Shown: positions 1 to 22,037 of the stretch, piece after piece
How positions within the stretch are numbered: the stretch's first letter is position 1
How the letters are laid out: every line of letters starts with the position of its first letter
Assembly: GCA_024763505.1 (NCBI GenBank)
Contig: JANTFI010000005.1
Coordinates: forward strand, 1-48,156
Direction of reading: 5' to 3'
Source: Gammaproteobacteria bacterium
GTDB taxonomy: Bacteria; Pseudomonadota; Gammaproteobacteria; GCA-001735895
Length of the DNA: 48,156 bases
Notes under the pieces: model-generated
Seen by the model: only the letters and a program-made list of their open reading frames with translations
Told to the model about the DNA's origin: nothing
Databases searched by the model: none
Position numbers and translations under genes: made by a program

Positions 1-729
1 GAAAACATCAAGATCGTCATGGTCGAAACCACCCATCCCGGCAATATCGGCGCGGCCGCGCGGGCGATGAAAAATATGTGCCTGTCGCAGCTGGTGCTGG
101 TCAACCCGCAATGCCCGATCGGGCAGATCGCGTATTCGCGTGGCTCCGGAGCCAACGATATTCTCGACCAGCACATCCGCGTCGAAACCCTGCCGCAAGC
201 CGTCGCCGATTGCCAGGTTGTGATCGGCACCAGCGCGCGTATGCGTTCACTTGCCTGGCCGGAATTGTCGCCCGAAATGCTAGCGCAAAAGATTGCCGGC
301 ATGGGCGAGGATGAAAGAGCCGCCATCGTGTTCGGACGAGAACATTCGGGCTTGACCAATGATGAATTGCAGCATTGCCATTACACCGTCACCATCCCCA
401 CCAATGCCGATTTCAGTTCGCTGAATGTCGCTTCGGCGATTCAAGTGATCAGTTATGAAATCTACAAGCGATTTCAGCATCTACCACAGCAAGCGCCAAG
501 CGAAAAAAAGGAAGATGCCGAAGCGGCAGCCGATAGCGCCGAGATGGAAGGTTATTTCTCGCATCTTGAACAGGTCATGGTCGCAACCGGTTTTCTCGAC
601 CCGGACAACCCGCGTCAACTGATGAAGCGGTTGCGCCGGCTGTATCAACGCGCCGAACCGAGCAAGAATGAAGTGAATATCTTGCGCGGCATTTTGAGCG
701 CGGTAGAAAAATACAAAAAGGAAACGTAA
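1..729 (+). CDS. trmJ: tRNA/rRNA 2'-O-methyltransferase, TrmJ/LasT (SPOUT) family; 5' end probably outside the window
   Basis: Motifs IVMVETTHPGNIGAAARAMKNM, VFGREHSGLTNDEL, SSLNVASA and C-terminal EVNILRGIL; the frame is open from base 1 (ENIKIVMVET). Confidence 0.92.
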   Translation, partial: ENIKIVMVETTHPGNIGAAARAMKNMCLSQLVLVNPQCPIGQIAYSRGSGANDILDQHIRVETLPQAVADCQVVIGTSARMRSLAWPELSPEMLAQKIAGMGEDERAAIVFGREHSGLTNDELQHCHYTVTIPTNADFSSLNVASAIQVISYEIYKRFQHLPQQAPSEKKEDAEAAADSAEMEGYFSHLEQVMVATGFLDPDNPRQLMKRLRRLYQRAEPSKNEVNILRGILSAVEKYKKET

Positions 730-766
730 CGGTCAGATGATTACCGAGTCGTTATCAGAAACCGGA

Positions 767-3700
767 TTAATCCGTGTCTGACTGCTCACTGGCTTGCAGG
801 ATCGCCCGGTTGTGCGGTACCTGATTTAAAAAGGCATGGCGCAGCTGGTTGTCGGTTATTTTGTCGGCGCGCTGTTGCAACAGCTGTCGGGTTTGTTGCA
901 GAAAAGGCCCGGCTCGGGCATCGCCTGCCTGTTGCAATACCTGATAGACCGTCAAACGAATCAGTATCGGTTCTTCAGTGCCATCGAGGCTACCGCCTTG
1001 TTGTAAGAAATCGAGTACTTTTACAACTTGAATGTGGGCCTCGGTGAGGTTTCCCTGTTGCAGCGATAGCCGTGCCAGTGCTGCGAAAACTTCCATCGCC
1101 AGGTGTTCACCCGAATTGGCTTCGAACAGCTCAATAGCTTGCTGCAGAGCCTCGTGCGCGGCTTCAAACTCTCCGGTTTCTGTCAGAGCCTGACCCAGCT
1201 GCAAATGGGTAGCGGCCTGCAAGTCACGAAACTCGCCCTGTATCGCAATTTTCAGCGCCTGCTGTGCCAGCTCGATTGCATTTGGAAAACGCTGTTTGAG
1301 ATTGGCTATGATCGCCAGGTTGAGCTGTACCACGCATTCTCCGATACTGTAACCTATGCTGCGCGCGATACTGATCGATTGTTCGAAACAGGCTTCGGCT
1401 CTGTCATAGTCGCCGATACGCAGGTAATTATCGCCCAAAGTATTGTAGGCATTGGATTCTCCTACCTTGTCCTGCAGGTTGAGCACAATGTCGAGGTATT
1501 TCCTGTCGAGTTGAAAACATTGAGCCAAATCACCGCTTTCCGCGCAAAGTGCGGCCAGATTGGTGATGAGGCGGCCTTCAATTTGAGGGTTGGATGCAAG
1601 ACGCGCCAACGTCAGCCCATTTTCGGCGGCTTGCCGGGCATCGGGGAAGTTACCCATCCGGCGCAAACACATGGCTTGAATTTCTTTGGCTTGCGCCGCG
1701 ATGTCTGACTGTTGACAAGCCTGTGCGCGTTGAAACGCACGAATGGCAGATTGCTCCGCTTGCTGGTAGTCACCCGCATCGCAAATGGCACTTGCTCGCC
1801 TCAGTATGGCTTCTGCAATGCGAGGCTCATCCGCTAATTGCTGGGCGGTTTCCAACAGCGCATCGAGGTCGGCTTCATGTGCTTTACGGTCATGCTGTAG
1901 CGAGAGAATCTTTTCGCGTGCTTCGAGCAGGGACCAGCGTAATTTGAGGTCTGCAGGGGTTAGATGAGGTAGCGCGCGTTGAACATAATTGAGCGTTGCA
2001 TCGCCACTGTGACGTGCGGCGGCTTGCTGGGCAGCCTGAGCATAAAACTCGACGGCTCTGGCCCAGTTGTTGGCACATTCATAGTGGTAGGCAGTTATCC
2101 CCGGAAAATCACTTCCACGCTTGTTGGCCAGGCTTTCATACCAGCCGGCGACGGCCGCATGAAAATTCTCTCGATGTGTTTTGAGCAGGCTCAGATAAGT
2201 GACCTTATGCAGAATATGATGCTGAAAACTGTATTTTTGTGCGCCTTCAAATCGACTGCCGGGTTGTTGAATGATCAATTCGCGCTGAACCAGTTCGGGT
2301 AGATATTTCAGGCTGTCAGGTTCGATTGTGGCCAGTGTATTGTCCCAGAACATGAAACCGATGACCGAGGCCAACTGCAACGTCGCGCGCTGCTGCGCAT
2401 TGAGGGCATCCAGTCTGGCCTGCAAAACGCCAGTGAGTGAGTCCGGCACCTGAATATTATCCAGTTTTTGCGGTACCAGACGCCATTGCTCGATATCGCT
2501 GATGATGGCACCATCGTCGATCATCATCTTGACCAGTTCTTCCATGTAAAAAGGGTTACCATCTGCCGAATCGGTAACGAGTTTCAATAAGTCGGATGGA
2601 ATCATATCCAGTCGCTGCAGCAATGTTGTCGCCAGTTGCTGGCTATGTTGATGGTTCAACGCCTGCAGGTCGATGCGTAAGGTATTCTGGCAGACAGGCC
2701 AGGCTGGACGATGCCGATAGAGTTCAGGCCGGGCCAGTGCCAGCAGCAGCATCGGGATATCGTTGTTGGCTTTTAGCAGGTAATCCAGAAAATTCAGCGA
2801 GTCGGTGTCGGCCCAGTGCAAGTCGTCCACGATCAATAATATGGGGTCTCCGCTTCGGTACAGCCTGCGCAGCACTTCGGCAGCGCAATGCAGTCCTCGG
2901 CGGCGAATTTTTTGCGGGTCATCGAGAAGCGCTGCCAGTTTTGGATTATGACTGAAATCCAGCCCGATCAATTGCCCGAGCATTTCTACCGAAAGCATTT
3001 CTTCGGTGCTGAACAGGGGTTGCAGCCTTGAGCAAAACTGTTCGCGTGTATGCCGGATGTCATCTCCTTCCGATAGTTGTAGACGCCAGGCCAGAATATT
3101 GTACAACAGGCCGTAGGGTTGCTGGCGAGCTGTCGGTTGGGAACGACCTTTAAACAGGTAATAACTGTACGGTTGCGTATCGGCCCAGTTTTCAAATTCA
3201 TACAGCAAGCGTGATTTTCCGATGCCGGCTTCAGCAACAATGGTCACGACACGGGGGGCAGGCGGGACCGTGTCGTCGAACAATGCCTGAAATTGCTGCT
3301 GCAAATGCCCAAGCTCAACCTGACGGCCGATCATTTGCGTTTCAACCCCGTCAATGCCGCGCTGAAGATTGTGAAAAGCGCGCGGCTTGGCGGAGTGGAC
3401 CAGATAGGTTTTGAGTGGCTCATCCAGCCCTTTGATGTCAATGGGGGGCTGTTCGGTGACATCGAAAATGCCACGGACATGACGAAAGCAATAGTGGCTG
3501 ATGCGCAAGCCACCGGGCGGCGCTTGCTGCTCCATGCGCGCGGCAATATGAACCGTCAGGCCGCGGATACTGTTATCGGCATCGACTCCGCCGCCAATCA
3601 ATACGCGGCCGGTGTTGATGCCGACCCGCAAATCAAATCCTTCCAGTCCAAATCGATGCAAAACATCGTCAGCGATTTGCCTGGAAGCTTCAAGACAGGC

Positions 3701-4090
3701 GAGCCCGGCTCGCACAGCGTTTTCCGGGTCTTCTTCATACGCATCGTCGGCACCGAAGGCGGCGAGCAGACTGTCGCCGGCATATTGCAGTACACGGCCA
3801 TGAAACCGGTCGATGATATCGCTCAGTTGCTTCAGAGCGCCATCCAGAATGCTTTGTGTTTCTTCCGGGTCAAGCTGACGCGCCATTTGTGTGGATCCGA
3901 CAATATCGGCAAACAGAACACTGACCTGTTTCAATCGTTGTTCGGCAAAATCGGCCCATCCCTGTGACCTGAACGCGTCAAGCTGAGCCTGCAACGGCGC
4001 AATGGCCAGGTTAACGACGTCATCGCCAAGCAGTTCGCGCTGATTATTCAGTGCAGCAATGGCGGATATCAAATCCTGCTGGCTACTCAT
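767..4090 (-). CDS. Class III adenylate/guanylate cyclase fused to a STAND-type AAA ATPase and TPR repeats (1107 aa)
   Basis: Cyclase motifs FADIVGST, AGDSLLAAFG, RVGINTG, TVHIAARME; Walker A AEAGIGKS; Walker B LLIVDDLHWAD; GNPFYMEE; C-terminal TPR-like helices (e.g. AYNTLGDNYLRIGDYDRAEACFEQSI). Confidence 0.9.
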   Translation of the reverse strand: MSSQQDLISAIAALNNQRELLGDDVVNLAIAPLQAQLDAFRSQGWADFAEQRLKQVSVLFADIVGSTQMARQLDPEETQSILDGALKQLSDIIDRFHGRVLQYAGDSLLAAFGADDAYEEDPENAVRAGLACLEASRQIADDVLHRFGLEGFDLRVGINTGRVLIGGGVDADNSIRGLTVHIAARMEQQAPPGGLRISHYCFRHVRGIFDVTEQPPIDIKGLDEPLKTYLVHSAKPRAFHNLQRGIDGVETQMIGRQVELGHLQQQFQALFDDTVPPAPRVVTIVAEAGIGKSRLLYEFENWADTQPYSYYLFKGRSQPTARQQPYGLLYNILAWRLQLSEGDDIRHTREQFCSRLQPLFSTEEMLSVEMLGQLIGLDFSHNPKLAALLDDPQKIRRRGLHCAAEVLRRLYRSGDPILLIVDDLHWADTDSLNFLDYLLKANNDIPMLLLALARPELYRHRPAWPVCQNTLRIDLQALNHQHSQQLATTLLQRLDMIPSDLLKLVTDSADGNPFYMEELVKMMIDDGAIISDIEQWRLVPQKLDNIQVPDSLTGVLQARLDALNAQQRATLQLASVIGFMFWDNTLATIEPDSLKYLPELVQRELIIQQPGSRFEGAQKYSFQHHILHKVTYLSLLKTHRENFHAAVAGWYESLANKRGSDFPGITAYHYECANNWARAVEFYAQAAQQAAARHSGDATLNYVQRALPHLTPADLKLRWSLLEAREKILSLQHDRKAHEADLDALLETAQQLADEPRIAEAILRRASAICDAGDYQQAEQSAIRAFQRAQACQQSDIAAQAKEIQAMCLRRMGNFPDARQAAENGLTLARLASNPQIEGRLITNLAALCAESGDLAQCFQLDRKYLDIVLNLQDKVGESNAYNTLGDNYLRIGDYDRAEACFEQSISIARSIGYSIGECVVQLNLAIIANLKQRFPNAIELAQQALKIAIQGEFRDLQAATHLQLGQALTETGEFEAAHEALQQAIELFEANSGEHLAMEVFAALARLSLQQGNLTEAHIQVVKVLDFLQQGGSLDGTEEPILIRLTVYQVLQQAGDARAGPFLQQTRQLLQQRADKITDNQLRHAFLNQVPHNRAILQASEQSDTD

Positions 4091-6903
4091 GGCTTTGCGG
4101 GTGAGTGTAGAGATGAATCAAACGATGGATTTTTTTCGTCGGGTAATGCTGACGGTTGAGCCTTGCCGTTGAATTTTTCGATCAAACCATTGCGTTCTGC
4201 CTGACGCTGAGCCTGCACCCGGTTCAAATTGAGAAAAATTCGCGCTGCGATGGATGGGTAAGCACGGCACAGACGTTCCTTATCTTCATCATCGAAACGC
4301 AGCAGGCGGGTTTCACTCACTGTATCGACACTGGCAGAGCGGCGCTGGCCGAAATAGCCGATTTCACCCACCACATCGCCCCGTTGCATGCGTGCCAGTT
4401 CGATGTGGTCATCACCAATATCCTTGAATACGGTGACTTCACCATCGATGATGACATAAATATCACCCGATTCATCCCCTTCGGTGATCAGCCGTGTGCC
4501 CGACGGTAAGGTATGCAGGTTCGCCATCAGTGCGAAGATGCGCGACTGGCGATCGCTCAGGCCACGAAACAGTGGAATGGTTTTTTGCACTTGCGCGCCG
4601 AGGTTGAGGCGCAAGGTATCCCACAAGGTAACGATGCGCAGGCCACTCATGAAGGCAGGCGTCACGAAGATATCCACTAGCCAGGTGCAGAATAATGTCA
4701 ATGCAGCGAGCCAGCCGAACAGTGCCTGCGAACTTAAATCGCCACTGAGCATGGTCAGGAATCCGGCGATCAGAATGGTTTTGGTGACGGTGACCGGGCG
4801 CAACACGGATTGCAGCGCCCGCTGGGCCGCGATGGTTTCGGATCCGGAACGCTTGGCCGCGCTGGCAAAGCGTGACAGATAATGAATGGTGTCATCAATG
4901 GCCAACCCCAGCACCAGAGTTTCGACCAGCACCGAGGTCGGGTTGAGCGAAACGCCGAGTAACCCCAACATGCCGAAATACAGCGCTGTCTGCAGTGCGG
5001 TCGGCAAGGTGGCAAGCAAGCCGATTTTAAATGACAGGAATTGCAGCGACAGGCACAGATAGATCAGCAACAGTGCCAGTGCCACGCTCATCAATTGGCC
5101 AGAGGTAGCCTTGCGCACCGATTCGGTCATGATTACTGCTCCGCCACCCAGATGGATTTCAAGGCCGCCAGGCAACTGTTTCAGACGTAGTTGCAAACGA
5201 TCGAGAAATGGTGCAATGCGGGCGGTGTCATCCACTCGCAGGCGAATCTGGATCAAGCTGGCCGAACGGTCGATATTAACCACACTGCGTTGCCATTCGC
5301 CATCTCCGACAAACAGCATCTGGCGGATCGCATCACGTGAGGCGGGAATAGCGAAACTCGCTTCTGCCGCAAGATAGCGATTGAGCAACTTGACATGGTC
5401 TGCCAGCCCAAGCACCGAACCAACTTCAGGTTGCTGGCTGACCCATTTTTCGAGCTGGTCGAGTTGCTGCAGGATATTGGGGTCGGTAAAGACATCCTCG
5501 GCACCCCCCTCAAAGGCCAGATAAACCGGGTTGACGCCACCCATTTTCTGGTTGATGGCCGCATGATCGATACGAATTCTCGAGTTTTCCGGGAATAGTC
5601 CAATCAGTTGTTCGCCGATCCGAATCTGCGCGGCATACAGTAAAGACCCTGCGAAAACAATCAGGGCGACCCACAGTATCTGTTTGCGATGCTGCTGGTC
5701 AAATTTGCTGAGAGTGTCGATGGCTTGATCGAGCATGGCTTCGCCGGCCAGCGGCTGATCGCGCCGCCGAGGTTTGCAAAAATACAGCAGAGAGGGTACC
5801 AGCAACAAGGTCAGCAGCATCAGGAAGAGGGTTCCCAGTGCTGAAAAAGCCGCAAACTCAATCATCGAGCGCTGTTCGTTCAAGGTCAACGCAAGCAGAC
5901 CGGCAATGGTCGCCAGCCCGGTCACCATCACCGGTATCGAGGTTTCCTGCAGCAGGCTGGCGATGTGCTTTTGCGCTGACAGGGCCGGTTCACGCCGATG
6001 TATTTGCTCGTATTCGGAAATCACATGAGCGCAATATGCCAGCCCCATGGTGATTATGAACGGTGGGGTCAGGGCAGTCACCAGATTGATCGGAATTGCG
6101 GCGACACTGAAACTGGCAAGTACCCAAAGCATCGCCACACAAATGGTCAGTAATGGAATTAGGACTGCGCGCAGACTGCGAAAAACCAGCGCGAGCAAGA
6201 CCGCAATCACCAGCATGATGGCCGGGATCATGGTTTTCATCTGGGAAGTCAGAGTATGGCTTATTTCACTGCGAATCAATGGTGCACCGGTGACATGGAT
6301 GCGTACACCCGGCCCAGCCTGTCGGTCGGCGGTTTGGCGAATCCGGCGAGCCAGATCACTGTGCAGAATTTCCAGCTCATCGCTGGACGCCGGGTGAACC
6401 AGAACCACGGCGGCGCTGCCATCACGCGATACCAGTTGCCCGGCGATCAAGGGATTGTCCAGCGTGCTGTGCCTGAGTTCCCGGGCGATCTGCGGATCTT
6501 GCAGACTGGTCGGGGTCAGAGGTGAATAGTTGAGATCGTTGCGTTCGATGCGCGGTAATCGGGTCAGGGTCAGTGAATCCACTGATTTGACCCCGTCGAG
6601 CTGTTGCAAATCGTGCGACAGGCGATCCAGCCGTTGCAGGTTTTTCGGCAGAAAAACATCATCCACCTGCATCATCACCATGACCGGTTCCCGGTTGCCA
6701 AACCGCAGCCGAACCAGGCTATCGAATTTACGTTCCTGCGGGGTCAGAATCGAGATGGCATCGAGCGAAGGGTCGATCGACAGGCGTAGTCTGGCGTTTT
6801 GAAAATCAAATAATTGTAGCAGAGCCAATAGCGACAGAATCAAGGTGGCCATCAGCACAGCGATGCTGTGCTCAGCGATCCAGCGATGAAACCGGTTTGG
6901 CAC
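4087..6903 (-). CDS. MMPL/RND-family transporter with a C-terminal cyclic nucleotide-binding domain (938 aa)
   Basis: Two RND repeats (TM, large periplasmic loop, five TMs; VTGAPLI, GLAIDDTIHYL); C-terminal cNMP domain LITEGDESGDIYVIIDGEV...VVGEIGYFGQRRSASV; GTG start after a GGAGG RBS; the stop overlaps the cyclase start (ATGA). Confidence 0.88.
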   Translation of the reverse strand: MPNRFHRWIAEHSIAVLMATLILSLLALLQLFDFQNARLRLSIDPSLDAISILTPQERKFDSLVRLRFGNREPVMVMMQVDDVFLPKNLQRLDRLSHDLQQLDGVKSVDSLTLTRLPRIERNDLNYSPLTPTSLQDPQIARELRHSTLDNPLIAGQLVSRDGSAAVVLVHPASSDELEILHSDLARRIRQTADRQAGPGVRIHVTGAPLIRSEISHTLTSQMKTMIPAIMLVIAVLLALVFRSLRAVLIPLLTICVAMLWVLASFSVAAIPINLVTALTPPFIITMGLAYCAHVISEYEQIHRREPALSAQKHIASLLQETSIPVMVTGLATIAGLLALTLNEQRSMIEFAAFSALGTLFLMLLTLLLVPSLLYFCKPRRRDQPLAGEAMLDQAIDTLSKFDQQHRKQILWVALIVFAGSLLYAAQIRIGEQLIGLFPENSRIRIDHAAINQKMGGVNPVYLAFEGGAEDVFTDPNILQQLDQLEKWVSQQPEVGSVLGLADHVKLLNRYLAAEASFAIPASRDAIRQMLFVGDGEWQRSVVNIDRSASLIQIRLRVDDTARIAPFLDRLQLRLKQLPGGLEIHLGGGAVIMTESVRKATSGQLMSVALALLLIYLCLSLQFLSFKIGLLATLPTALQTALYFGMLGLLGVSLNPTSVLVETLVLGLAIDDTIHYLSRFASAAKRSGSETIAAQRALQSVLRPVTVTKTILIAGFLTMLSGDLSSQALFGWLAALTLFCTWLVDIFVTPAFMSGLRIVTLWDTLRLNLGAQVQKTIPLFRGLSDRQSRIFALMANLHTLPSGTRLITEGDESGDIYVIIDGEVTVFKDIGDDHIELARMQRGDVVGEIGYFGQRRSASVDTVSETRLLRFDDEDKERLCRAYPSIAARIFLNLNRVQAQRQAERNGLIEKFNGKAQPSALPDEKNPSFDSSLHSPAKP

Positions 6904-6923
6904 TTCGACCTCCTGTCGGCAGG

Positions 6924-7733
6924 TTACTCCTGCTCGATATAAAAACCTTCCGGAGTAAACAGGGATTCAGGCAGCCGCTCATTGATGAAGATATCGCTCA
7001 ACCATAGATCGGTGCGCGTACCGGCCCGTAGATCGGACATTCGATAGCCCTGAATCAACCACCACGGATCGATTTCAAGCAGGGTCGAGATATCGGCCTT
7101 GAGCACTTTGCTCAGGGTATCATCGGCCGTGAAAAGTTCTGACTTGAGTAGCAGACAGCTTTGCTGATCGATATAACTGCGCACTTTTCGGTAAAAATGA
7201 CCGGTTCCGCTGTGGCTGGTTTCGATCAGATAGGCTGGCCGGCCTTCGATGGTCTCGTCGGGCAGACGTTTGACGACACCTTCGATCATCAACCCCTGTA
7301 ATTGCTTGATGTCAGCAATACTGAAATCGCTGCCCCATAATTTTTGACTGTCTTCTCCGCCTTGTAGCGTGCGCACCTTGCGTAATGCGGGCAGGTACAA
7401 ATACAGTTTTTCGCTGTCAAGATTCTTCACCACCAGATATGAGGTACCGCGCAGGGCTTTCGGTTCCTGTACCTGTAACGTGATGCGAATGACATCCGAA
7501 GTCTTGGATGGCTTCCAGAAAGCCTTGAACTGGATGGTTTTGGATTTGCCTTCCTTATCAGTCGATTTGATCTGGAAATCGCGTACCGCACCGCGTTCAA
7601 ACACATTGACCCGCATGCATTGTGCAATTTCCTGAATGCTTTTGTCAGCGTTGGAATCTGCCAGCGCAATTCCAGCATTGAAAAACAGACCTAGGCTGAA
7701 AAGGGTCGGGAGTAATCGGTAGTAAGGCTTCAC
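6924..7733 (-). CDS. LolA-like 'outer membrane lipoprotein-sorting' periplasmic protein
   Basis: Signal peptide (...NAGIALA); motifs P..LRGTSYL, LYLPALRKVR, WGSDFSIAD and LPESLFT, typical of the LolA-like proteins that accompany MMPL exporters; GAGGA RBS before a GTG start. Confidence 0.8.
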   Translation of the reverse strand: MKPYYRLLPTLFSLGLFFNAGIALADSNADKSIQEIAQCMRVNVFERGAVRDFQIKSTDKEGKSKTIQFKAFWKPSKTSDVIRITLQVQEPKALRGTSYLVVKNLDSEKLYLYLPALRKVRTLQGGEDSQKLWGSDFSIADIKQLQGLMIEGVVKRLPDETIEGRPAYLIETSHSGTGHFYRKVRSYIDQQSCLLLKSELFTADDTLSKVLKADISTLLEIDPWWLIQGYRMSDLRAGTRTDLWLSDIFINERLPESLFTPEGFYIEQE

Positions 7734-7772
7734 TGTGCGTCCTCTGTGAATGGATGAGTTTTATTCTGATCT

Positions 7773-7789
7773 CGAAATACGATATTTCG
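7773..7789. promoter_or_regulatory. Perfect 7-3-7 inverted repeat CGAAATA-CGA-TATTTCG upstream of the LolA-like/MMPL/cyclase operon (putative operator)
   Basis: Seen directly, ~40 bp upstream of the GTG at 7733; function is inferred. Confidence 0.35.
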
Positions 7790-7923
7790 TTATTATTCTT
7801 ACGCCGGCCTGACCGGGTGTTTAATCAAGGTGCAGCTAAGCGTCTGGCACCTCTGGTAACGTGCATGTTAATACAAAATTGATTGCAAAGCGAAACTGTT
7901 TGGACGTGTACGAATCAGGCAGG

Positions 7924-8586
7924 TTATCGGTTGTGCAGGTAACGACGGTCATCAAAAGTGGCGATCCACTGTGGTTTGTAGATGACAAAAACAGAGATGA
8001 CGCCACCGGTTATAAAGGCTTCCGGATACATGATCGGAATGAAAATCAGGATGTATTGATCCAGCGTTTCTTCAATCAACTGATTGTCCAGATGTTTGAG
8101 AATTTCATAGGAAATCAATCCGCTAGTCAAAATCGACAAACCGGCTGCCAGAAAAGCGCAGACAAAGATATAAATAAAATAATTGGCAGGTAAATAGCGT
8201 TCATTAAAACGCCAGATGAGGTAAGTAACAGTGACCGGCACGACGCCGGTAATCAGGCCGTTCATGGCAAAAGCAGCGAAATCGGCATCCGTACTGATAG
8301 TCATACCGAGCAATATCAGTGCATTGGCCAGTAAGGCTACTTGCCAGCGGAACATCAGGGTCAGAATACTGCTGCCGAGTAAATGAATCGCCAGCCCGTC
8401 ATCGACATTGACTTTCAATTGCCAGAACAGGAAAACCACCGCACAAGCCGCAAACAGGATATTACTGGAATCCTTTTGCAGCAGAATCTGCCATGGCGCA
8501 CGATACAGTGCCCACAGCAAAACAGGCCAGTACAGCGACTGCGTCCAGAGCCACAAGCCGGGTAAATGTATTGAATGGAGATCCAC
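7924..8586 (-). CDS. Solitary CbiM-like ECF-type membrane protein
   Basis: About 6 TM helices; HLLGSSILTLMF, NYFIYIF, PEAFITG and C-terminal P.WIATFDD.RYL; no cbiQ or cbiO adjacent. Confidence 0.7.
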   Translation of the reverse strand: MDLHSIHLPGLWLWTQSLYWPVLLWALYRAPWQILLQKDSSNILFAACAVVFLFWQLKVNVDDGLAIHLLGSSILTLMFRWQVALLANALILLGMTISTDADFAAFAMNGLITGVVPVTVTYLIWRFNERYLPANYFIYIFVCAFLAAGLSILTSGLISYEILKHLDNQLIEETLDQYILIFIPIMYPEAFITGGVISVFVIYKPQWIATFDDRRYLHNR

Positions 8587-8646
8587 AGAATCGACAAATA
8601 AAAACAGAGCGGAACAGAGGCTACTAGCTTAACCCCGGCTTTGGGA

Positions 8647-8660
8647 TTGATTTACATCAT
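8647..8660. promoter_or_regulatory. FNR/Anr-type box with one mismatch (TTGAT-TTAC-ATCAT)
   Basis: Near match to TTGAT-N4-ATCAA in the divergent cbiM-like/ppdK intergenic region. Confidence 0.6.
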
Positions 8661-8706
8661 CCTGATCCGGTTTTTGTCGCAGTAAAGGCGAATTTTCAGC
8701 TTTCAT

Positions 8707-8720
8707 TTGATGTGAATCAA
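8707..8720 (+). promoter_or_regulatory. Perfect FNR/Anr box (TTGAT-GTGA-ATCAA), probable class II promoter of ppdK
   Basis: Exact consensus; a -10-like GATACT/TACTGT at 8743-8750 puts the box centre near -41.5. Confidence 0.8.
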
Positions 8721-8787
8721 CACCTGGCCTAGCAGATTTCAGGATACTGTAAAAAATTCAACGGTAACTAATCGGGAGAGACCACCA

Positions 8788-11553
8788 ATGAGCCAGCAAT
8801 TCGTTTATACCTTTGAGCAGGGAGATGGCAAAAACAAGATGCTGCTCGGCGGCAAAGGAGCCAACCTGTGTGAAATGACACAAATCGGTCTCAATGTACC
8901 GCCCGGTTTTGTGATCACTACAGAAGCCTGTCTGGCACATTTGCAAGACAAGGAAAACCTGCCCGAAGGATTGATGGATCAGGTGCGCGACAACATGGCC
9001 GAGTTGGAAAAGAAAACCGGCAAAACCTTTGGTGGACGCGAAAAACCTCTGCTGGTATCAGTGCGCTCCGGCTCAGCGATGTCGATGCCAGGCATGATGG
9101 ATACCATTCTCAATCTCGGCCTCAATAGTGAAACCATTTTGGGCTTGATCGAACAAAGTGGTAACGAACGCTTCGGCTGGGATTCTTATCGTCGTTTTAT
9201 TCAACTGTTCGGCAAAGTGGCACTGGGTATTGCCGATGAAGAATTTGATGAAGAATTCGATCAGATCAAGCGTGATGTCGGTGTCACTACCGATCTGGCG
9301 CTCAGTGCCGAAGATTTGCAACGCGCCACCGAGCGCTTCCTCGAAGTAGTCAAGCGCGTGACCGGGCTACCATTTCCGGAAGATCCGATGGTTCAGCTGG
9401 AAATCGCCATCAAGGCTGTGTTCAATTCATGGGATGGCAAGCGCGCGGTCGATTACCGGCGCGAATTCAATATCACCCCGGACATGGCTAATGGTACCGC
9501 AGTGAATATCTGCACCATGGTATTTGGTAACCTCGGAAATGATTCCGCCACCGGTGTTGCGTTTACGCGTTATCCCGACACCGGCGCCAACGAGCTGTTT
9601 GGTGAGTATCTGGTCAATGCGCAGGGCGAAGATGTGGTGGCCGGCATTCGCACACCCAAGCCGATCGATGCCATGCTGGATGAAATGCCGGCGTTGTACA
9701 AACAACTCAAGCAATTGCGTGACAAGTTGGAAGGGCATTATCACGAAGTGCAGGATTTCGAATTCACCATCGAAAAAGGACAGCTCTACTGCCTGCAAAC
9801 GCGCAACGGCAAGATGAACGCGGTGGCGATGGTGCGCACCTCGGTGGATATGGTGCGCGAAGCCCTGATCGACAAGAAACAGGCGTTGATGCGCATCCAA
9901 CCCGATTTGCTCGAACAATTATTGTTTCCGCGTCTCGACAGCAACACGCGCCGCGTGCCGGTAGCGCGCGGGTTGCCGGCTTCACCGGGCGCTGCGGTCG
10001 GGCATGCTGTGTTCGATGCCGATCGCGCCGAAGAACTCGGGCGTAAGGGCGAGCGCGTAATTTTGCTGCGTGAAGAAACCAAGCCGGAAGATATCCACGG
10101 CTTTTTTGCTTCTCAAGGTATACTTACCGCACGCGGTGGTAAAACCTCGCACGCTGCTGTGGTTGCACGCGGCATGGGTAAACCCTGTGTCGCCGGGGCC
10201 GAAGGCATTCATGTCGATGTCGCGCTTCGCGTTGCTACCGTCGGTCAAAACACCATTGCCGAGGGCGATTTGATCACCATAGATGGCACCACCGGTGACG
10301 TCTATCTGGGTGAAGTCGAGATGATCGAAGCCGAGTTTTCTTCCGAACTGGATGTACTGCTGCAATGGGCCGATGAGCGCGCTCGGCTGGCTGTGATGGC
10401 CAATGCAGACACGCCGCAGGCAGCCAAACAGGCGCTCAAATACGGCGCTATGGGCATCGGCCTGTGCCGCACCGAACGTATGTTTAATGCCAAGGATCGC
10501 TTGCCGATCGTAATCGATATGATCGTGGCCGAAACTCCGGAGAAACGTCAGGAAGCGCTCGATCAGTTACTGCCGATCCAGCGTGAAGATTTCAAGGCGA
10601 TCCTGAAAATCATGACCCCCAAGCCGGTAACGATTCGTCTGCTCGACCCTCCGATCCATGAATTTCTGCCTTCCGAAAACCAACTGGTTGAAGAATTAAC
10701 GCAATTGCAACAATTACGCGATACCGTACAGGGTATGGGCGTGCTGACCGATGCGGTGGAACAGATTTACCGCAACGCCAGTGATGGAGAACCCAAACGC
10801 GTGCGTTATCTGGCCGATTCGCATCTGGTGGAAGAAGTGATCCAGAAGAAAACCAAAATCTTGCGCATGGTGCGCAACCTGTTTGAAACCAATCCGATGC
10901 TCGGTCACCGCGGCGTACGTCTGGGTATTACCTTTCCGGAAATTTACAAGATGCAGATTCAAGCCGTGCTCGAAGCGGCGGCCGAATGCACCAAGGAAGG
11001 TGACCGCGTGTGTCCCGAAATCATGGTACCGCAAGTATGTACGCTGGAAGAGCTCAACCGTGTCAAAATCTATGTCGATGAAATCCATCAGGAGGTTGAG
11101 CAGCGTTACGGCATTCAGGTCGATTTCAAATTTGGTTCGATGATCGAAGTTGTGCGCGCCTGTATGCGCGCCGACCGGTTGGCAGAAGAAGCCGAATTCT
11201 TTTCCTTTGGCACCAATGATTTATCACAGGCAACATTTTCTTTTTCTCGCGAAGATGCCGAAAACAAGTTTCTGCCGATGTATCACGAAAAGAAAATTCT
11301 GCAAGACAACCCTTTCGAAGTGCTTGATGTCAAAGGTGTTGGCAAGTTGATGGAACTGGCGATAAACTGGGGGCGGCAAACCCGACCCGACATGCGTATG
11401 GGCATCTGCGGCGAGCATGGAGGGCATCCACAATCGATTCATTTTTTCCATTGCATCGGGCTGACCTATGTGTCGTGTTCCGGTCCGCGCATACCCTCCG
11501 CGCGGCTGGCTGCGGCACAGGCAGCCCTGATGGAAGCGGAAAAATTCATGTAA
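8788..11553 (+). CDS. ppdK: Pyruvate, phosphate dikinase
   Basis: LLGGKGANL, LVSVRSGS, phospho-His motif GGKTSHAAVVAR, GLCRTE, FSFGTNDL, GICGEHGG. Confidence 0.97.
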   Translation: MSQQFVYTFEQGDGKNKMLLGGKGANLCEMTQIGLNVPPGFVITTEACLAHLQDKENLPEGLMDQVRDNMAELEKKTGKTFGGREKPLLVSVRSGSAMSMPGMMDTILNLGLNSETILGLIEQSGNERFGWDSYRRFIQLFGKVALGIADEEFDEEFDQIKRDVGVTTDLALSAEDLQRATERFLEVVKRVTGLPFPEDPMVQLEIAIKAVFNSWDGKRAVDYRREFNITPDMANGTAVNICTMVFGNLGNDSATGVAFTRYPDTGANELFGEYLVNAQGEDVVAGIRTPKPIDAMLDEMPALYKQLKQLRDKLEGHYHEVQDFEFTIEKGQLYCLQTRNGKMNAVAMVRTSVDMVREALIDKKQALMRIQPDLLEQLLFPRLDSNTRRVPVARGLPASPGAAVGHAVFDADRAEELGRKGERVILLREETKPEDIHGFFASQGILTARGGKTSHAAVVARGMGKPCVAGAEGIHVDVALRVATVGQNTIAEGDLITIDGTTGDVYLGEVEMIEAEFSSELDVLLQWADERARLAVMANADTPQAAKQALKYGAMGIGLCRTERMFNAKDRLPIVIDMIVAETPEKRQEALDQLLPIQREDFKAILKIMTPKPVTIRLLDPPIHEFLPSENQLVEELTQLQQLRDTVQGMGVLTDAVEQIYRNASDGEPKRVRYLADSHLVEEVIQKKTKILRMVRNLFETNPMLGHRGVRLGITFPEIYKMQIQAVLEAAAECTKEGDRVCPEIMVPQVCTLEELNRVKIYVDEIHQEVEQRYGIQVDFKFGSMIEVVRACMRADRLAEEAEFFSFGTNDLSQATFSFSREDAENKFLPMYHEKKILQDNPFEVLDVKGVGKLMELAINWGRQTRPDMRMGICGEHGGHPQSIHFFHCIGLTYVSCSGPRIPSARLAAAQAALMEAEKFM

Positions 11554-11579
11554 TAATTTTTTTAGCACAGGTAACGATT

Positions 11580-11780
11580 ATGAAAATGCAGGAAATCAGG
11601 GAAATCGCCAAACCTCTTGGCATTAAGACATCACGATTGAGCAAGATCAATCTGGTGCGAGCAATTCAATTGGCTGAAGGTAATTTTGCCTGCTTCGCCA
11701 CTGCGACTGCAGGCGAATGTGACCAGCTCGATTGTATCTGGCGCGGTGATTGTCTGCCACTGTCGAAAAAAGCGGCCTAG
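11580..11780 (+). CDS. Small SAP/Rho-N-like helical protein with a four-Cys C-terminal motif (66 aa)
   Basis: MKMQEIREIAK.LGI...K.NLVRAIQ.AEGN.ACF...C.Q..C.WR.DC; ATG at 11580 with CAGGT upstream. Confidence 0.75.
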   Translation: MKMQEIREIAKPLGIKTSRLSKINLVRAIQLAEGNFACFATATAGECDQLDCIWRGDCLPLSKKAA

Positions 11781-11882
11781 AAGCGGTAGTATTGCCTGTC
11801 AAGGTGCCAGAGGATGCGAACAAACATGCAATTCTCTGGCGGTTTTGGACAGTCATTATAAACTGACAAGACGGGTTTCAGA

Positions 11883-13337
11883 TCAACTGTTATCCGCGAT
11901 GGCCAACCGATACAACTCAATGTACTTCGCTGCACTGGCTTGCCAAGAGCGGTCCGGAGTCATGGCGTTGATTTGCAATTGTTTCCATCTCGGCTTGTCG
12001 CTGAAATCATCCAGCGCTCGCTGAATTGAGTGCAGCAACGCATCGGGCTTGTTTTCCGGAAGTTGATAGCCATTGGCGATGTGCTGTTCGAAATTTTCCT
12101 GATTGGCGTCTACCACACTGTCTGCCAGCCCGCCGACTTTGCTGGCAATCGGCAGGGTGCCATAGCGCAGGCTATATAACTGATTCAGCCCGCAGGGTTC
12201 AAACAAAGAGGGCATCAGATACAGGTCGGCAGAGGCCTCAATTTGATGCGACAGGCACTCATCATAACCGATGATCACCTTCAGGTTTTTCGGGTAACGT
12301 CTGGCCCATTCCTGCAGCGAGTCTTCGAAAGCCTTTTCCCCACTGCCGAGTACAACCAATTGCAACGGAAACTGCAACAGTTTTTGCATGGCTTCGAGAA
12401 GAATCGGCAAGCCTTTCTGTTCGACCAGACGGCTGATCATGCCGAGCATCGGAATCTGTCGATCGACGGGCAATTCAAGCTTTTTCTGCAACGTCTTTTT
12501 ATTGATCGATTTATCCTTGAGTGAATCAATATCATACTTTTTTGCCAGATAACGGTCAGTCGCAGGGTTCCACTCATCGGTGTTGATGCCATTGAGAATG
12601 CCAGACAGGCGACTGGCGCGATGGCGGAGTAATCCATCCAGCCCGTAACCGAATTCGGCTTGCTGGATTTCCCGGGCATAAGTCGGGCTAACCGTATTCA
12701 GTCGATCGGCAAATACCAGCCCGCCCTTGATGAAGGAAAACAGGCCGTGAAATTCGAGGCCGTGCATGCCCCACAGGCCGCCGGGTAATCCGAGCTCGAA
12801 GAAAACCCGGTCGTCGAACAAGCCCTGATAGGCGAGATTATGAATGGTGAAGAGGGTCGCCGGTCGTTGCAAAAATGTGTCCAGCAACGCGGGCACCAGA
12901 GCCGTTTGCCAGTCATTGCAATGCACCAGTCCTGGTTGCCAGTCGAGTCCGACGCGGTTCAGTGCAATATCGACGGCAACCTGGCAAAACAGTGCGAAAC
13001 GCAAGGCATTGTCCTGCCAGGGTTGACCATTGGTATCGAGATAAGGATTGCCGGGTCGACCGAACAGAGCCGGGCAATGCACCAGCAGTGTTTTCAGATC
13101 ATGGCCGGGCAGTGTGGTTTGCAGGATATCGATATCGTGATCGTAATGACGTGTGGAGGCTACCACCTGATAGTCGTCCAATTGTTCCAGCACACTTTGA
13201 TAGGCCGGTAGCAAAAGACGAATGTCGATGCCTGCTTGCTTCAGTGCCAGTGGCAGACTGCCGGCGACATCGGCCAACCCTCCGGTTTTTACTAATGGGT
13301 AGGCTTCACTACTGATGAAAAGAACTGGCTGTTTCAT
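11883..13337 (-). CDS. glgA: Glycogen synthase
   Basis: [31 protein letters not shown]; start at MKQPVLF overlaps the glgB stop. Confidence 0.96.
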
Positions 13338-15535: not shown

Positions 15536-15561
15536 CGATAGGATTCCTTAAACGGTCAGAA

Positions 15562-15598
15562 TTGATACAGGTCAACCCGGCAGATTGATATAGCTCAA
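15562..15598. promoter_or_regulatory. Two tandem FNR-like boxes just upstream of glgB (TTGAT-ACAG-GTCAA at 15562-15575; TTGAT-ATAG-CTCAA at 15585-15598)
   Basis: Each has one mismatch to TTGAT-N4-ATCAA; centres 23 bp apart; 27-63 bp upstream of the glgB start. Confidence 0.65.
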
Positions 15599-20336: not shown

Positions 20337-20350
20337 ACTCAGGGCAATCT

Positions 20351-22015: not shown

Positions 22016-22037
22016 AATATTTACAACCGTCTCAGTG

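What the first reader, a model, noticed from the sequence alone, without database searches (positions are those of the whole stretch)
767..7733. Candidate cyclic-nucleotide-controlled export system: LolA-like carrier, cNMP-binding MMPL transporter and STAND/TPR cyclase in one operon
Seen: three co-oriented genes, with a 20 bp gap and a 4 bp ATGA overlap between the MMPL stop and the cyclase start. The MMPL ends in a cNMP-binding domain with an intact phosphate-binding cassette (GE...RSA, ~4328-4369). Known: MMPL plus LolA-like pairs export hydrophobic cargo and usually sit with an outer-membrane barrel gene; cNMP domains gate channels and regulate CRP; STAND-TPR proteins are ligand-triggered switches. 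Inference: the TPR region senses a signal, the STAND domain activates the cyclase, and the cyclic nucleotide binds the co-translated transporter to switch export. I know of no characterised RND/MMPL transporter controlled by its own cyclase. No barrel gene is present here.
Basis: partly seen in the sequence, partly recalled or inferred. Interest (0 to 1): 0.85.

Follow-up and report, generated by a model that had tools for sequence, protein, structure and literature searches.

The report
Lipid pump with its own cyclic-nucleotide switch
Three adjoining genes encode a periplasmic lipid carrier, an MmpL-type membrane pump ending in a cyclic-nucleotide sensor domain, and a signal-sensing cyclase, and related genomes place a cyclase beside this pump again and again, which suggests a pump switched by a second messenger.

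Summary
On the minus strand lie a LolA_like gene (6924-7733), an MMPL/RND gene with a C-terminal cNMP_binding domain (4087-6903) and a class III cyclase-AAA_16-TPR gene (767-4090). They are separated by a 20-bp gap and a 4-bp overlap.

The LolA-like plus MMPL-cNMP pair is a widespread, conserved two-gene module. All 80 genome loci fetched are fused, and LolA sits directly upstream in 78 of 80.

A class III cyclase lies within 5 kb of the module in 36 of 80 genome loci and 20 of 80 metagenome loci. It lies near 0 of 40 non-fused MMPL loci from relatives. The cyclases occur in at least five arrangements and two architectures, STAND-TPR and CHASE2, so they were recruited repeatedly.

The window's own arrangement was found nowhere else. 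In the nearest congener the orthologous cyclase lies on another contig.

The binding residues of the sensor domain are invariant. The cyclase keeps its metal and arginine residues but has Gln and His at two canonical positions. A model supports LolA docking on the pump (0.69 against 0.01).

No biochemistry or RNA data exist. I judge this a probable new variant: an RND-type pump controlled by a cyclic nucleotide.

The parts
6924..7733 (-). LolA-like periplasmic carrier gene (P0001, 269 aa). It has an N-terminal signal-peptide-like stretch ending ALA/D and no lipobox cysteine.
   Evidence: ORF; translation; PF17131 LolA_like 7e-31, 107.7 bits against cut-off 30. C39 and C193 are invariant in 47 orthologues. 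Predicted to dock on the pump. The signal-peptide reading is by eye.
4087..6903 (-). MmpL/HAE3-type RND transporter gene with a C-terminal cyclic-nucleotide-binding domain (P0002, 938 aa).
   Evidence: PF03176 6e-32; PF00027 1.2e-14. (TIGR00921 HAE3 5.6e-60, but 203 bits is below its 351.9 cut-off). AlphaFold2 model pLDDT 88.1, pTM 0.81. Top Foldseek matches are MmpL4, MmpL5, MmpL3 and HpnN.
4648..6867 (-). Transporter body, residues 13-752: twelve long helices and two periplasmic domains (about 35-205 and 430-586). The conserved AIDDTIHY segment holds D670 and T672 (invariant) and D671 (at least 90% conserved).
   Evidence: Secondary structure of the model. D670 and T672 invariant and D671 nearly invariant in 59 sequences. 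The role of these Asp residues in proton coupling is recalled from MmpL3/HpnN work and was not tested.
4165..4590 (-). Cytoplasmic cyclic-nucleotide-binding domain with its C-terminal helix, residues 772-913. A conserved linker (RIVTLWD..LRL.LG, residues 756-769) precedes it.
   Evidence: Pfam PF00027 at 798-881. Beta-rich fold at 795-870 and helix 883-913 in the model. PKA-R, CRP and SthK CNB domains are the sequence matches in the PDB. Linker residues W761, D762, L764, L768 and G769 are at least 90% conserved.
4333..4368 (-). Phosphate-binding cassette GEIGYFGQRRSA (G846-A857).
   Evidence: G846, E847, R855 and A857 are invariant in 59 fused homologues of 22-61% identity, and also in the 15-sequence alignment.
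4087..4090 (-). ATGA overlap of the pump's stop codon with the cyclase's start codon.
   Evidence: ORF coordinates. Two contigs bridge 3943-4218 in run X1.
767..4090 (-). Class III nucleotide cyclase - STAND NTPase - TPR gene (P0003, 1107 aa).
   Evidence: (TIGR03903 3.3e-64, below its cut-off). Family of 5154 clusters at E<=1e-30.
3395..3943 (-). Cyclase catalytic domain, residues 50-232. It has D62 and D106 (metal), Q102 at the Lys position, D172, H181 at the Asn position and R185.
   Evidence: PF00211 7.6e-22, and the same span. Alignment to CyaB 3r5g and others. Column counts.
2759..3328 (-). AAA_16 (STAND) NTPase domain, residues 255-444. Walker A is GIGKS at 289 and the Walker B-like IVDD is at 420-423.
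   Evidence: PF13191 5.2e-14. Motif positions. Naming them Walker motifs is my reading of the sequence.
887..1453 (-). TPR / MalT-like repeat region, residues 880-1068. This is the presumed sensor or interaction module.
   Evidence: PF13424 1.9e-24 and PF17874 5.9e-15. Any sensing role is inferred.
7734..7923 (-). 190-bp intergenic region upstream of the LolA-like gene, the likeliest place for the operon's promoter.
   Evidence: sequence. The consensus scan found no promoter-like site in it, and terminator-like sites in 500-8900 were at chance level (8 found, 8.4 expected). The promoter is not located.

Best explanation
The three genes form a sensor-messenger-pump unit.

Shown by sequence and models:
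- P0002 is an MmpL/HAE3-type RND transporter of the inner membrane. Its last transmembrane helix runs through a short conserved linker into a cytoplasmic cyclic-nucleotide-binding (CNB) domain whose ligand-contacting residues are intact.
- P0001 is a secreted LolA-like protein, always encoded directly upstream of such pumps. A model places it on the pump's two periplasmic domains.
- P0003 is a cytoplasmic class III cyclase fused to a STAND NTPase and TPR repeats.

Inferred:
- A signal read by the TPR/STAND part switches the cyclase on.
- The cyclic nucleotide (cAMP is most likely, but the specificity residues are non-canonical) binds the CNB domain.
- Through the linker, this changes the activity of the proton-driven pump, which hands a hydrophobic cargo to the LolA-like carrier for passage across the periplasm.

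The sign of the control (on or off), the cargo and the direction of transport are unknown. The link between cyclase and pump is supported by repeated, independent placement of cyclase genes beside this pump family in other lineages. It is not supported by conservation of this particular operon.
For: Parts:
- Pfam hits are above cut-offs for all domains.
- The AlphaFold2 model of P0002 has pLDDT 88.1 and pTM 0.81. It shows 12 long helices, two periplasmic domains and a C-terminal beta-rich domain.
- The best Foldseek matches are MmpL4, MmpL5, MmpL3 and HpnN, with TM-score 0.71-0.79 on the target.

CNB pocket:
- G846, E847, R855 and A857 are invariant in 59 fused proteins of 22-61% identity.
- PKA-R, CRP and SthK CNB domains are the PDB sequence matches.

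Fusion family:
- 50 of the 120 listed homologues carry PF00027.
- 80 of 80 genome loci are fused.

LolA partner:
- It lies directly upstream on the same strand in 78 of 80 genome loci. The other two are a broken pump and a contig end.
- It does so in 50 of 56 metagenome loci with at least 800 nt of upstream flank.
- 2 of the 120 listed homologues are natural MMPL-LolA_like fusions (P0070, P0101).
- Complex model: score 0.69, best of 3 controls 0.01. This mark was reached by 58 of 80 solved complexes and 2 of 110 mismatched pairs. The runs agree in at least 85% of contacts, and partner pLDDT is at least 74. Contacts are at pump residues 63-128 and 511-547. The model supports binding but does not show it.

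Cyclase link:
- A class III cyclase, or its STAND part at a contig end, lies within 5 kb of the module in 36 of 80 genome loci. Among loci with full flanks the count is 29 of 50.
- The same holds in 20 of 80 metagenome loci, and in 10 of 17 with full flanks.
- Control: 0 of 40 non-fused MMPL loci from related genomes have a cyclase in about +/-8.7 kb. Those genomes hold 0-19 cyclase matches each.

Arrangements:
- Zinc-ribbon-cyclase-AAA_16 directly upstream of LolA in 31 loci.
- CHASE2-cyclase 93 bp downstream on the same strand in L006.
- A convergent CHASE2-cyclase 0.2-4.9 kb downstream in 12 metagenome loci, plus a divergent one upstream in L120.
- A convergent STAND-TPR cyclase 54 bp away in L104.
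- Pump-FadL/TodX-cyclase in L123.
- The window itself.

Dedicated cyclase:
- Five genomes with the upstream arrangement hold 5-9 cyclases each.
- 5 of their 6 cyclases longer than 1000 aa are the module-adjacent ones (coordinates matched).

Cyclase competence:
- D62, D106 and R185 are kept in 41, 41 and 42 of 42 neighbouring cyclases, and in 120 of 120 family members.

Operon form:
- A 20-bp gap and a 4-bp overlap.

Co-occurrence in the genus:
- Of 13 congeners, only G002 has an intact pump orthologue (61% identity), and only G002 has a P0003 orthologue (55%).
- G007 has a pump broken into two ORFs and no P0003 orthologue.
Against: The window's gene order (LolA, pump, STAND-TPR cyclase with overlap) was found in none of the 160 other loci.

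In G002 the orthologous cyclase sits alone on a 10.5-kb contig and the pump on a 33.7-kb contig, so they are unlinked there.

In the window's own clade of the pump tree, only 2 of 20 rows have an adjacent cyclase: the window itself and L006.

The genomes of L006 and L007 have no P0003-like protein at E<=1e-30.

44 of 80 genome loci show no cyclase. Of these, 23 have at least 4.3 kb of flank upstream and 3.4 kb downstream. The pump therefore does not need a neighbouring cyclase.

P0003 is 42-57% identical to many proteins, among them four that sources name from Roseateles, Rivibacter and Paucibacter isolates and one from a Rubrivivax MAG. It is 27-31% identical to the full-length cyclases upstream of LolA. 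It is therefore not their orthologue, and its family may serve other targets.

The genome has 5 class III cyclases and 18 CNB-domain matches, so cross-talk is likely.

P0003 has His at the transition-state Asn position (Asn in 92, His in 14 and Ser in 13 of 120 family members) and Gln at the substrate Lys position. Activity and product are therefore uncertain.

The related MMPL-cNMP-GGDEF paralogues have no cyclase nearby (0 of 15).

Kin are not independent: the 31 upstream cases are essentially one conserved arrangement in one order.

Nothing here measures binding, catalysis, transport or transcription.
Confidence: 0.55

Rival explanations
1. The pump's CNB domain is real, but it listens to the cell's general cAMP/cGMP pool. 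The cyclase next to it in this window is a recent, neutral neighbour that mainly serves other targets.
For: In congener G002 the two orthologues lie on different contigs. In the window's clade only 2 of 20 rows have an adjacent cyclase, the window included. 44 of 80 genome loci have none in the flanks. The genome has 5 cyclases and 18 CNB matches. P0003's family is very large and mostly closer to proteins of other orders than to the pump-linked cyclases.
Against: Cyclases of two architectures sit by the module in at least five gene orders, against 0 of 40 control loci. In five genomes, 5 of 6 long STAND-type cyclases are the module's neighbours. The 4-bp start/stop overlap is typical of coupled genes. 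Within the genus the P0003 orthologue was found only where an intact pump orthologue is present, though this rests on a single genome.
Confidence: 0.27
2. A Pycsar-like or other abortive-infection defence system. On phage attack a STAND-controlled cyclase makes a cyclic (pyrimidine) nucleotide, which activates a membrane effector through its CNB domain.
For: The PADLOC scan gives domain-level hits: P0003 to PycC models (best 2.8e-13, 47.8 bits) and the CNB domain of P0002 to PycTIR (4.5e-13). STAND NTPases are common in defence systems (recalled). The specificity residues of the cyclase are non-canonical.
Against: The 'effector' is a complete 12-helix RND pump with conserved D670/D671/T672 and a conserved periplasmic partner that is predicted to bind it. 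The module is kept in one place next to the same neighbours across an order, for example the SDR and GreA-like genes downstream. The window's neighbours are housekeeping genes: SpoU, PPDK and glycogen genes. The PADLOC hits are weak and cover only the shared folds.
Confidence: 0.05
3. The C-terminal domain has a CNB fold but binds another ligand or none, acting as a structural or dimerisation module. The pump would then be independent of cyclic nucleotides.
For: CNB folds in CRP/FNR relatives bind other ligands (recalled). Paralogues in this genome carry CNB plus a degenerate GGDEF domain with no cyclase nearby.
Against: The ribose- and phosphate-contacting Gly, Glu, Arg and Ala of the cassette are invariant in 59 sequences down to 22% identity. 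Cyclase genes are enriched next to the module.
Confidence: 0.1

Closest known systems
MmpL3/MmpL4/MmpL5 of mycobacteria and HpnN of Burkholderia (RND lipid and siderophore exporters)
   Same: Same fold: Foldseek E 5e-26 to 1e-21, TM-score on target 0.62-0.79. Pfam MMPL hit. Conserved acidic pair in a late transmembrane helix.
   Different: 14-18% identity. Those proteins have no cyclic-nucleotide-binding domain. The partner here is a LolA-like periplasmic protein, not MmpS or AcpM. The NCBIfam models for HpnN, MmpL3 and HAE3 all score far below their cut-offs.
LolA-like plus MMPL pairs or fusions of Gram-negative bacteria, e.g. TOL_3187 of Thalassolituus oleivorans
   Same: The same two parts. 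TOL_3187 is an MMPL protein with a LolA-like domain that rose 42-fold on n-C28 alkane (PMC6304351, passages read). Two such fusions are among the homologues here. The aryl-polyene export pair appeared only in a search listing (PMC8253772; not read).
   Different: Those have no CNB domain. In 27 of 40 non-fused relatives the LolA-like gene lies immediately downstream of the pump. In the fused family it lies upstream.
Cyclic-nucleotide-gated membrane proteins (SthK and MloK1 channels; MFS transporters fused to CNB domains)
   Same: A C-terminal cytoplasmic CNB domain follows the last membrane helix. SthK is among the PDB matches of the domain (2.1e-06). A 2023 review notes uncharacterised MFS-CNB fusions (PMC10710835, passages read).
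   Different: The membrane part here is an RND pump, not a channel or MFS carrier. In the passages read, the review lists RND regulation only by the small proteins AcrZ, YajC and WatS1.
Multidomain class III cyclases with an ATPase/STAND module, e.g. Rv0386 of Mycobacterium tuberculosis
   Same: Cyclase followed by an AAA_16-type NTPase. Gln at the substrate-Lys position is, as I recall, also a feature of Rv0386 (Castro et al. 2005; recalled, not seen). Rv0386 is described as an adenylyl cyclase in PMC10745434 (passage read).
   Different: P0003 ends in TPR repeats, and Pfam finds no DNA-binding domain. It has His at the Asn position.
Pycsar (PycC cyclase plus CNB-domain effector)
   Same: A cyclase gene lies next to a membrane protein with a CNB domain. 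There are weak PADLOC hits.
   Different: See the rival explanation: the membrane protein is a complete conserved transporter with a periplasmic partner, in a housekeeping context.

Membership tests
RND superfamily, MMPL family (PF03176) | Match to the family profile above the curated cut-off | tested here: met
   PF03176 111.3 bits against 20.5, two stretches.
RND superfamily, MMPL family (PF03176) | Twelve membrane helices with two large periplasmic domains after helices 1 and 7 | tested here: met
   Model secondary structure. Foldseek to MmpL3/4/5 and HpnN. This is a prediction, not a solved structure.
RND superfamily, MMPL family (PF03176) | Conserved charged residues for proton coupling in the membrane domain | tested here: inconclusive
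   D670 and T672 are invariant and D671 is at least 90% conserved in 59 sequences. Their equivalence to the MmpL3/HpnN relay is recalled. I did not check it by superposition.
HAE3 subfamily (TIGR00921) | Score above NCBIfam's curated cut-off | tested here: not met
   203.2 bits against a cut-off of 351.9, although the match covers residues 22-752. It is HAE3-like but not a member by that model.
Cyclic nucleotide-binding domain (PF00027) | Profile match above cut-off | tested here: met
   54.4 bits against 27.5, residues 798-881.
Cyclic nucleotide-binding domain (PF00027) | Phosphate-binding cassette with Gly-Glu ... Arg-(Ser/Thr)-Ala | tested here: met
   GEIGYFGQRRSA. G846, E847, R855 and A857 are invariant in 59 sequences.
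Cyclic nucleotide-binding domain (PF00027) | Binds a cyclic nucleotide | not testable with these tools
   Needs ITC, DRaCALA or a structure with ligand.
Class III nucleotidyl cyclase (PF00211) | Profile match above cut-off | tested here: met
   78.2 bits against 21.9. CyaB 3r5g 5e-18.
Class III nucleotidyl cyclase (PF00211) | Two metal-binding aspartates and the transition-state arginine | tested here: met
   D62, D106 and R185. Kept in 120 of 120 family members.
Class III nucleotidyl cyclase (PF00211) | Transition-state asparagine and the Lys/Asp substrate pair of canonical adenylyl cyclases | tested here: not met
   H181 replaces Asn (family: N 92, H 14, S 13, A 1 of 120). Q102 replaces Lys (Q in 110 of 120). 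D172 is present. This is a non-canonical active site whose product cannot be predicted.
STAND NTPase with TPR sensor (AAA_16 + TPR_MalT) | P-loop NTPase domain with Walker A and B, followed by a repeat array | tested here: met
   PF13191 53.5 bits against 32.6 and PF17874 55.8 against 45. GIGKS at 289 and IVDD at 420.
LolA_like (PF17131) | Profile match above cut-off and export to the periplasm | tested here: met
   107.7 bits against 30. The signal-peptide-like N-terminus is read by eye, and no signal-peptide predictor was available.
Pycsar defence system | PycC-family cyclase plus a CNB effector (TM or TIR), in a mobile or defence context | tested here: not met
   Only weak domain-level PADLOC hits, at most 47.8 bits. 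The neighbours are housekeeping genes. The module is syntenic across an order. The pyrimidine specificity of the cyclase is not testable here.

The most novel reading that the evidence does not exclude
This is the first recognised family of RND-type lipid or hydrophobe transporters that a cyclic nucleotide gates allosterically through a built-in CNB domain. The family is fed by sensor cyclases (STAND-TPR or CHASE2) that different lineages have recruited next to the pump at least five separate times. If so, Gram-negative bacteria have a fast, post-translational second-messenger switch on envelope lipid or hydrocarbon traffic, working with a LolA-like periplasmic carrier and no dedicated outer-membrane barrel.
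Probability: 0.4. Interest if true: 0.8.

Novelty: new variant of a known kind. Interest (0 to 1): 0.62.

Why it matters
RND and MmpL pumps move lipids, siderophores, hydrocarbons and drugs. Known control of their activity after synthesis is limited to small membrane proteins, according to the passages I read in a 2023 review (PMC10710835), and to phosphorylation in mycobacteria (recalled).

A pump with a built-in cyclic-nucleotide sensor and a nearby sensor cyclase would be a new mode of control for this superfamily. It would also be a new class of cAMP/cGMP effector in bacteria.

The family is common in hydrocarbon-associated Nevskiales and in marine sediment Gammaproteobacteria. It includes cultured, non-pathogenic strains such as Solimonas, Stenotrophobium, Sinimarinibacterium, Panacagrimonas and Hydrocarboniphaga. 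The idea is therefore directly testable by genetics, lipidomics and structure work.

Four full-text searches found no paper linking MMPL or RND pumps with CNB domains:
- Searches returned 0 papers.
- One search returned 7 papers. I read passages of one and only the listing of the rest.
- One search found 5 papers (4 listed), of which I saw only the listing. By title they concern mycobacteria or other topics.

Tried and rejected
- Expression: the look-up of sequencing runs listed no RNA holder, so co-transcription could not be tested.
- Read laying used DNA contigs only. X2 and X3 did not cover the pump/cyclase junction in the listed pieces. The X4 piece ends 13 nt past the junction and so does not count as bridging.
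- The promoter/terminator scan was uninformative: 10 promoter-like sites against 6.2 expected and 8 terminator-like sites against 8.4 expected. None lies in the 190-bp upstream spacer.
- A simple longest-ORF gene map failed in GC-rich loci, where antisense ORFs displaced real genes. I replaced it with homology tags plus a GC3 rule. The neighbour maps are still rough.
- Re-searching with an HMM of the cyclase domains found no cyclase that phmmer had missed.
- A control could not be completed because 178 matches were not listed. I fetched 40 control loci instead.
- The metagenome scan did not return the 68-74% identical relatives seen (P0005-P0007).
- I considered that P0003 and the cyclases upstream of LolA are orthologues moved by rearrangement. 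I rejected this because P0003 is 27-31% identical to the full-length ones but 42-57% identical to many other proteins.
- I did not run a formal significance test. The loci are related, so a Fisher-type test would overstate the result.
- Supplementary files of papers were closed and were not consulted. None seemed to bear on the claims.
- The Rv0386 Gln/Asn detail could not be found in the library and is recalled.

Full report
**1. What is in the window**

One search lists three ORFs on the minus strand:
- 6924-7733 (269 aa)
- 4087-6903 (938 aa)
- 767-4090 (1107 aa)

A 20-bp spacer separates the first two. It carries AGGAGG before the second gene's GTG start. The stop codon of the second gene and the ATG of the third share 4 bases.

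Pfam names the proteins as follows:
- LolA_like (7e-31)
- MMPL (6e-32) with cNMP_binding at residues 798-881 (1.2e-14)
- Guanylate_cyc (residues 50-232), then AAA_16 (255-444), then TPR / TPR_MalT (880-1068)

NCBIfam places the pump nearest the HAE3 subfamily, but below its cut-off (203 against 351.9 bits). It places the third protein nearest 'kinase/cyclase fusion' models, also below cut-off.

The flanking genes are unrelated housekeeping genes: a SpoU methylase, a CbiM-like protein, pyruvate phosphate dikinase and a glycogen cluster.

**2. The pump and its sensor domain**

An AlphaFold2 model built on 59 homologues is confident (pLDDT 88.1, pTM 0.81). It shows:
- helix 13-31
- a periplasmic domain
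- five long helices
- a cytoplasmic helix
- helix 406-424
- a second periplasmic domain
- five more long helices ending at residue 752
- a short helix at 760-768
- a beta-rich domain (795-870) with a long C-terminal helix (883-913)
- a disordered tail (914-938)

Foldseek finds MmpL4, MmpL5, MmpL3 and HpnN first.

In 59 fused homologues of 22-61% identity, the cassette residues G846, E847, R855 and A857 are invariant, as are D670 and T672 in the segment AIDDTIHY. D671 and the linker residues W761, D762, L764, L768 and G769 are at least 90% conserved.

By sequence, the domain's relatives with solved structures are the CNB domains of PKA regulatory subunits, CRP and the SthK channel. I therefore read P0002 as a working proton-driven MmpL-type pump whose last membrane helix is tightly joined to a cytoplasmic domain able to bind a cyclic nucleotide. 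Ligand binding itself is not shown.

**3. The LolA-like partner**

The fusion is not a singleton:
- 50 of the 120 listed homologues carry PF00027.
- All 80 loci returned from one-genome-per-species contigs are fused.

These loci come mostly from Nevskiales (Solimonas, Hydrocarboniphaga, Stenotrophobium, Sinimarinibacterium, Fontimonas, Panacagrimonas, Oceanococcus). Some come from other Gammaproteobacteria, Binatia and Myxococcota.

A LolA-like gene lies directly upstream on the same strand in 78 of 80 loci. The exceptions are a pump broken in two (L024) and a contig that starts inside the pump (L083). The same holds in 50 of 56 metagenome loci with enough upstream sequence. Two homologues are natural MMPL-LolA_like fusions.

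A complex model of pump residues 5-755 with LolA residues 27-269 scored 0.69, with the best of 3 controls at 0.01. This mark was reached by 58 of 80 solved complexes and 2 of 110 mismatched pairs. The runs agree in at least 85% of contacts, and partner pLDDT is at least 74. The contacts fall on both periplasmic domains. The model supports binding but does not show it.

C39 and C193 of the LolA-like protein are invariant, which would fit a periplasmic disulfide.

**4. Is the cyclase really linked to the pump?**

In the 80 genome loci:
- A ~1100-aa cyclase-AAA_16 protein lies directly upstream of the LolA gene on the same strand in 31. Two of these are cut by a contig end, so only the NTPase part is seen.
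- A cyclase lies directly downstream in 1 (L006).
- A cyclase lies 2-4.4 kb upstream in 4.
- None was found in 44.

Within 5 kb of the module the count is 36 of 80, or 29 of 50 for loci with full flanks. In the 80 metagenome loci it is 20 of 80, or 10 of 17 with full flanks.

For a control I took 40 non-fused MMPL genes (765-832 aa) from genomes related to the window's genome. None of the 40 has a class III cyclase within about 8.7 kb on either side. The genomes of that sample show 0 to 19 cyclase matches each.

Five genomes with the upstream arrangement hold 5-9 cyclases in 2.8-4.9 Mb. A chance neighbour would therefore be expected in well under 1 locus in 20. In those five genomes, 5 of the 6 cyclases longer than 1000 aa are the ones next to the pump module (coordinates matched).

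**5. Independent recruitments**

Related loci are not independent, so the number of different arrangements matters more than the raw counts. I see at least five:
- (a) Zinc-ribbon-cyclase-AAA_16 upstream of LolA, in the large clade of the pump tree.
- (b) The window: a STAND-TPR cyclase without zinc ribbon, downstream and overlapping.
- (c) L006: a membrane CHASE2-cyclase 93 bp downstream on the same strand.
- (d) A marine-sediment clade with a convergent CHASE2-cyclase 0.2-4.9 kb downstream. Homology confirms this in 12 metagenome loci, and one more (L120) has the cyclase divergent upstream. The cyclase stays next to the module whether or not four intervening genes are present. One of those four is a 165-aa stand-alone CNB protein.
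- (e) L104, with a convergent STAND-TPR cyclase 54 bp away, and L123, with pump-FadL/TodX-cyclase.

P0003 is 27-31% identical to the full-length cyclases of arrangement (a). It is 42-57% identical to many other proteins of its own very large family (5154 clusters at E<=1e-30). The window's linkage therefore arose separately.

**6. What argues for caution**

- The window's exact operon occurs in none of the other 160 loci.
- In the pump tree the window sits in a clade of 20 rows in which only it and L006 have an adjacent cyclase.
- Among 13 congeners, only G002 has an intact pump orthologue (61%) and G007 a broken one.
- Only G002 has a P0003 orthologue (55%), and there it stands alone on another contig. 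This co-occurrence hints at a shared function, but it also shows that adjacency is not required.
- The genomes of L006 and L007 lack a P0003-like protein.
- The window's genome has 5 cyclases and 18 CNB matches.
- The MMPL-cNMP-GGDEF paralogues have no cyclase nearby (0 of 15).

**7. Is the cyclase competent?**

Aligned to CyaB and other solved cyclases, P0003 keeps both metal aspartates (D62, D106) and the transition-state arginine (R185). These are kept in 120 of 120 family members.

At the substrate-Lys position it has Gln, as do 110 of 120 family members. At the transition-state Asn position it has His (family: Asn 92, His 14, Ser 13, Ala 1). Position 172 is Asp.

The enzyme is probably active, but its rate and product (cAMP, cGMP or other) cannot be read from the sequence. 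Walker A (GIGKS, 289) and a Walker B-like IVDD (420) are present in the NTPase.

**8. Mechanism, with what is shown and what is inferred**

Shown:
- The parts and the intact motifs.
- The conserved LolA-pump pairing.
- The enrichment of cyclase genes next to the module.

Supported by a model only:
- LolA docking on the pump.

Inferred:
- The TPR/STAND part senses a cytoplasmic signal and turns on the cyclase.
- The nucleotide binds the CNB domain.
- The conserved linker passes the change to the membrane domain.
- The pump's handing of a hydrophobic cargo to the LolA-like carrier is switched.

Cargo and direction are open. Three hints exist: a FadL/TodX gene in L123, the hydrocarbon-degrading habit of many hosts (recalled), and the 42-fold induction of an MMPL-LolA fusion on n-C28 in Thalassolituus (PMC6304351, passages read).

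**9. Rivals**

- A neutral neighbour, with the CNB domain reading the global pool (0.27).
- A CNB fold that binds something else (0.10).
- A Pycsar-like defence system (0.05). PADLOC gives only weak domain-level hits, and both the context and the complete pump speak against it.

**10. Novelty and verdict**

Four full-text searches found no paper linking MMPL or RND pumps with CNB domains:
- Searches returned 0 papers.
- One search returned 7 papers. I read passages of one and only the listing of the rest.
- One search found 5 papers (4 listed), of which I saw only the listing.

In the passages I read, a 2023 review of transporter modulation lists only small-protein regulators for RND pumps and mentions uncharacterised MFS-CNB fusions (PMC10710835).

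I file this as a new variant of known kinds: an MmpL-type pump, a CNB-gated membrane protein and a STAND cyclase. It is probably a real regulatory unit and is worth experimental follow-up in cultured relatives. Interest 0.62.

Noticed in passing
Own genome, contigs C52 (L089:2-3016, minus) and C175/C158 (L090:2459-4351; L091:4550-5893): A second family of pump fusions: MMPL + cNMP_binding + GGDEF domain, about 1060 aa. They lie next to MarR or TetR regulator genes and have no LolA-like gene. In the one copy I read, the GGDEF motif is degenerate (RWGDRRF). Matches of this kind were found in 11 of 13 congeners and in one genome of another genus. None of the 15 loci fetched has a cyclase nearby. 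The junction after the last helix (VTMWDMLSLKL) resembles that of P0002.
   Followed up: partly
L174-L213 (non-fused MMPL loci of related genomes): In 27 of 40 non-fused MMPL loci a LolA-like gene lies immediately downstream of the pump on the same strand. In the CNB-fused family it lies upstream. Gene order is therefore reversed between the two families.
   Followed up: partly
L128:9132-19620 and similar loci (L126, L133, L153, L078): The marine-sediment clade has a longer cluster: LolA, pump-CNB, a 188-aa coiled-coil-like protein, an ~894-aa HEAT-repeat protein (the L078 homologue also gave a sub-threshold MFS_4 hit), a 165-aa stand-alone cNMP_binding protein and a 246-aa protein of no known family. 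A convergent CHASE2-cyclase follows. In L147 a FecR/TPR protein lies close to the cyclase.
   Followed up: partly
L030, L046, L048, L061, L072 (tandem cyclase pairs upstream of LolA): In 5 of 5 loci with two STAND-type cyclases in tandem, the distal copy keeps the transition-state Asn (VNLAARME). The copy next to LolA has Gly or His there. This would fit an asymmetric heterodimer with one degenerate site, as in mammalian cyclases (recalled).
   Followed up: no
L123:9043-10323: A FadL/TodX-family outer-membrane channel gene (PF03349, 5.3e-51) sits between the pump-CNB gene and a zinc-ribbon-cyclase-STAND gene. It is a possible 'missing barrel' and a hint at a hydrophobic cargo.
   Followed up: no
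L027:12806-13657 and L031:13741-14238, and equivalents in many loci with the upstream cyclase: A short-chain dehydrogenase (~282 aa) and a GreA/GreB-like factor (~167 aa) follow the pump on the same strand in many Nevskiales loci. This shows stable synteny. Whether the dehydrogenase belongs to the system is unknown.
   Followed up: no
window 8788-24599: A pyruvate phosphate dikinase gene and a glycogen metabolism cluster: starch/glycogen synthase, branching enzyme, ADP-glucose pyrophosphorylase-like, GH57, 4-alpha-glucanotransferase and glycogen phosphorylase-like.
   Followed up: no
window 3943-4218 and 4507-4771: Run X1 holds two versions of these stretches: one identical, and one with 24 or 20 differences at lower depth. 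A second strain with the same pump/cyclase junction therefore seems present in that sample. Runs holding the stretch are labelled hydrothermal vent metagenome.
   Followed up: no
Own genome contig C9 (L092:10162-12180, plus): A second STAND-type cyclase with an N-terminal double zinc ribbon, like the cyclases that sit upstream of LolA in other lineages. The contig end cuts it, and it lies divergent from an ABC-F ATPase gene. Its downstream neighbours are unknown.
   Followed up: partly
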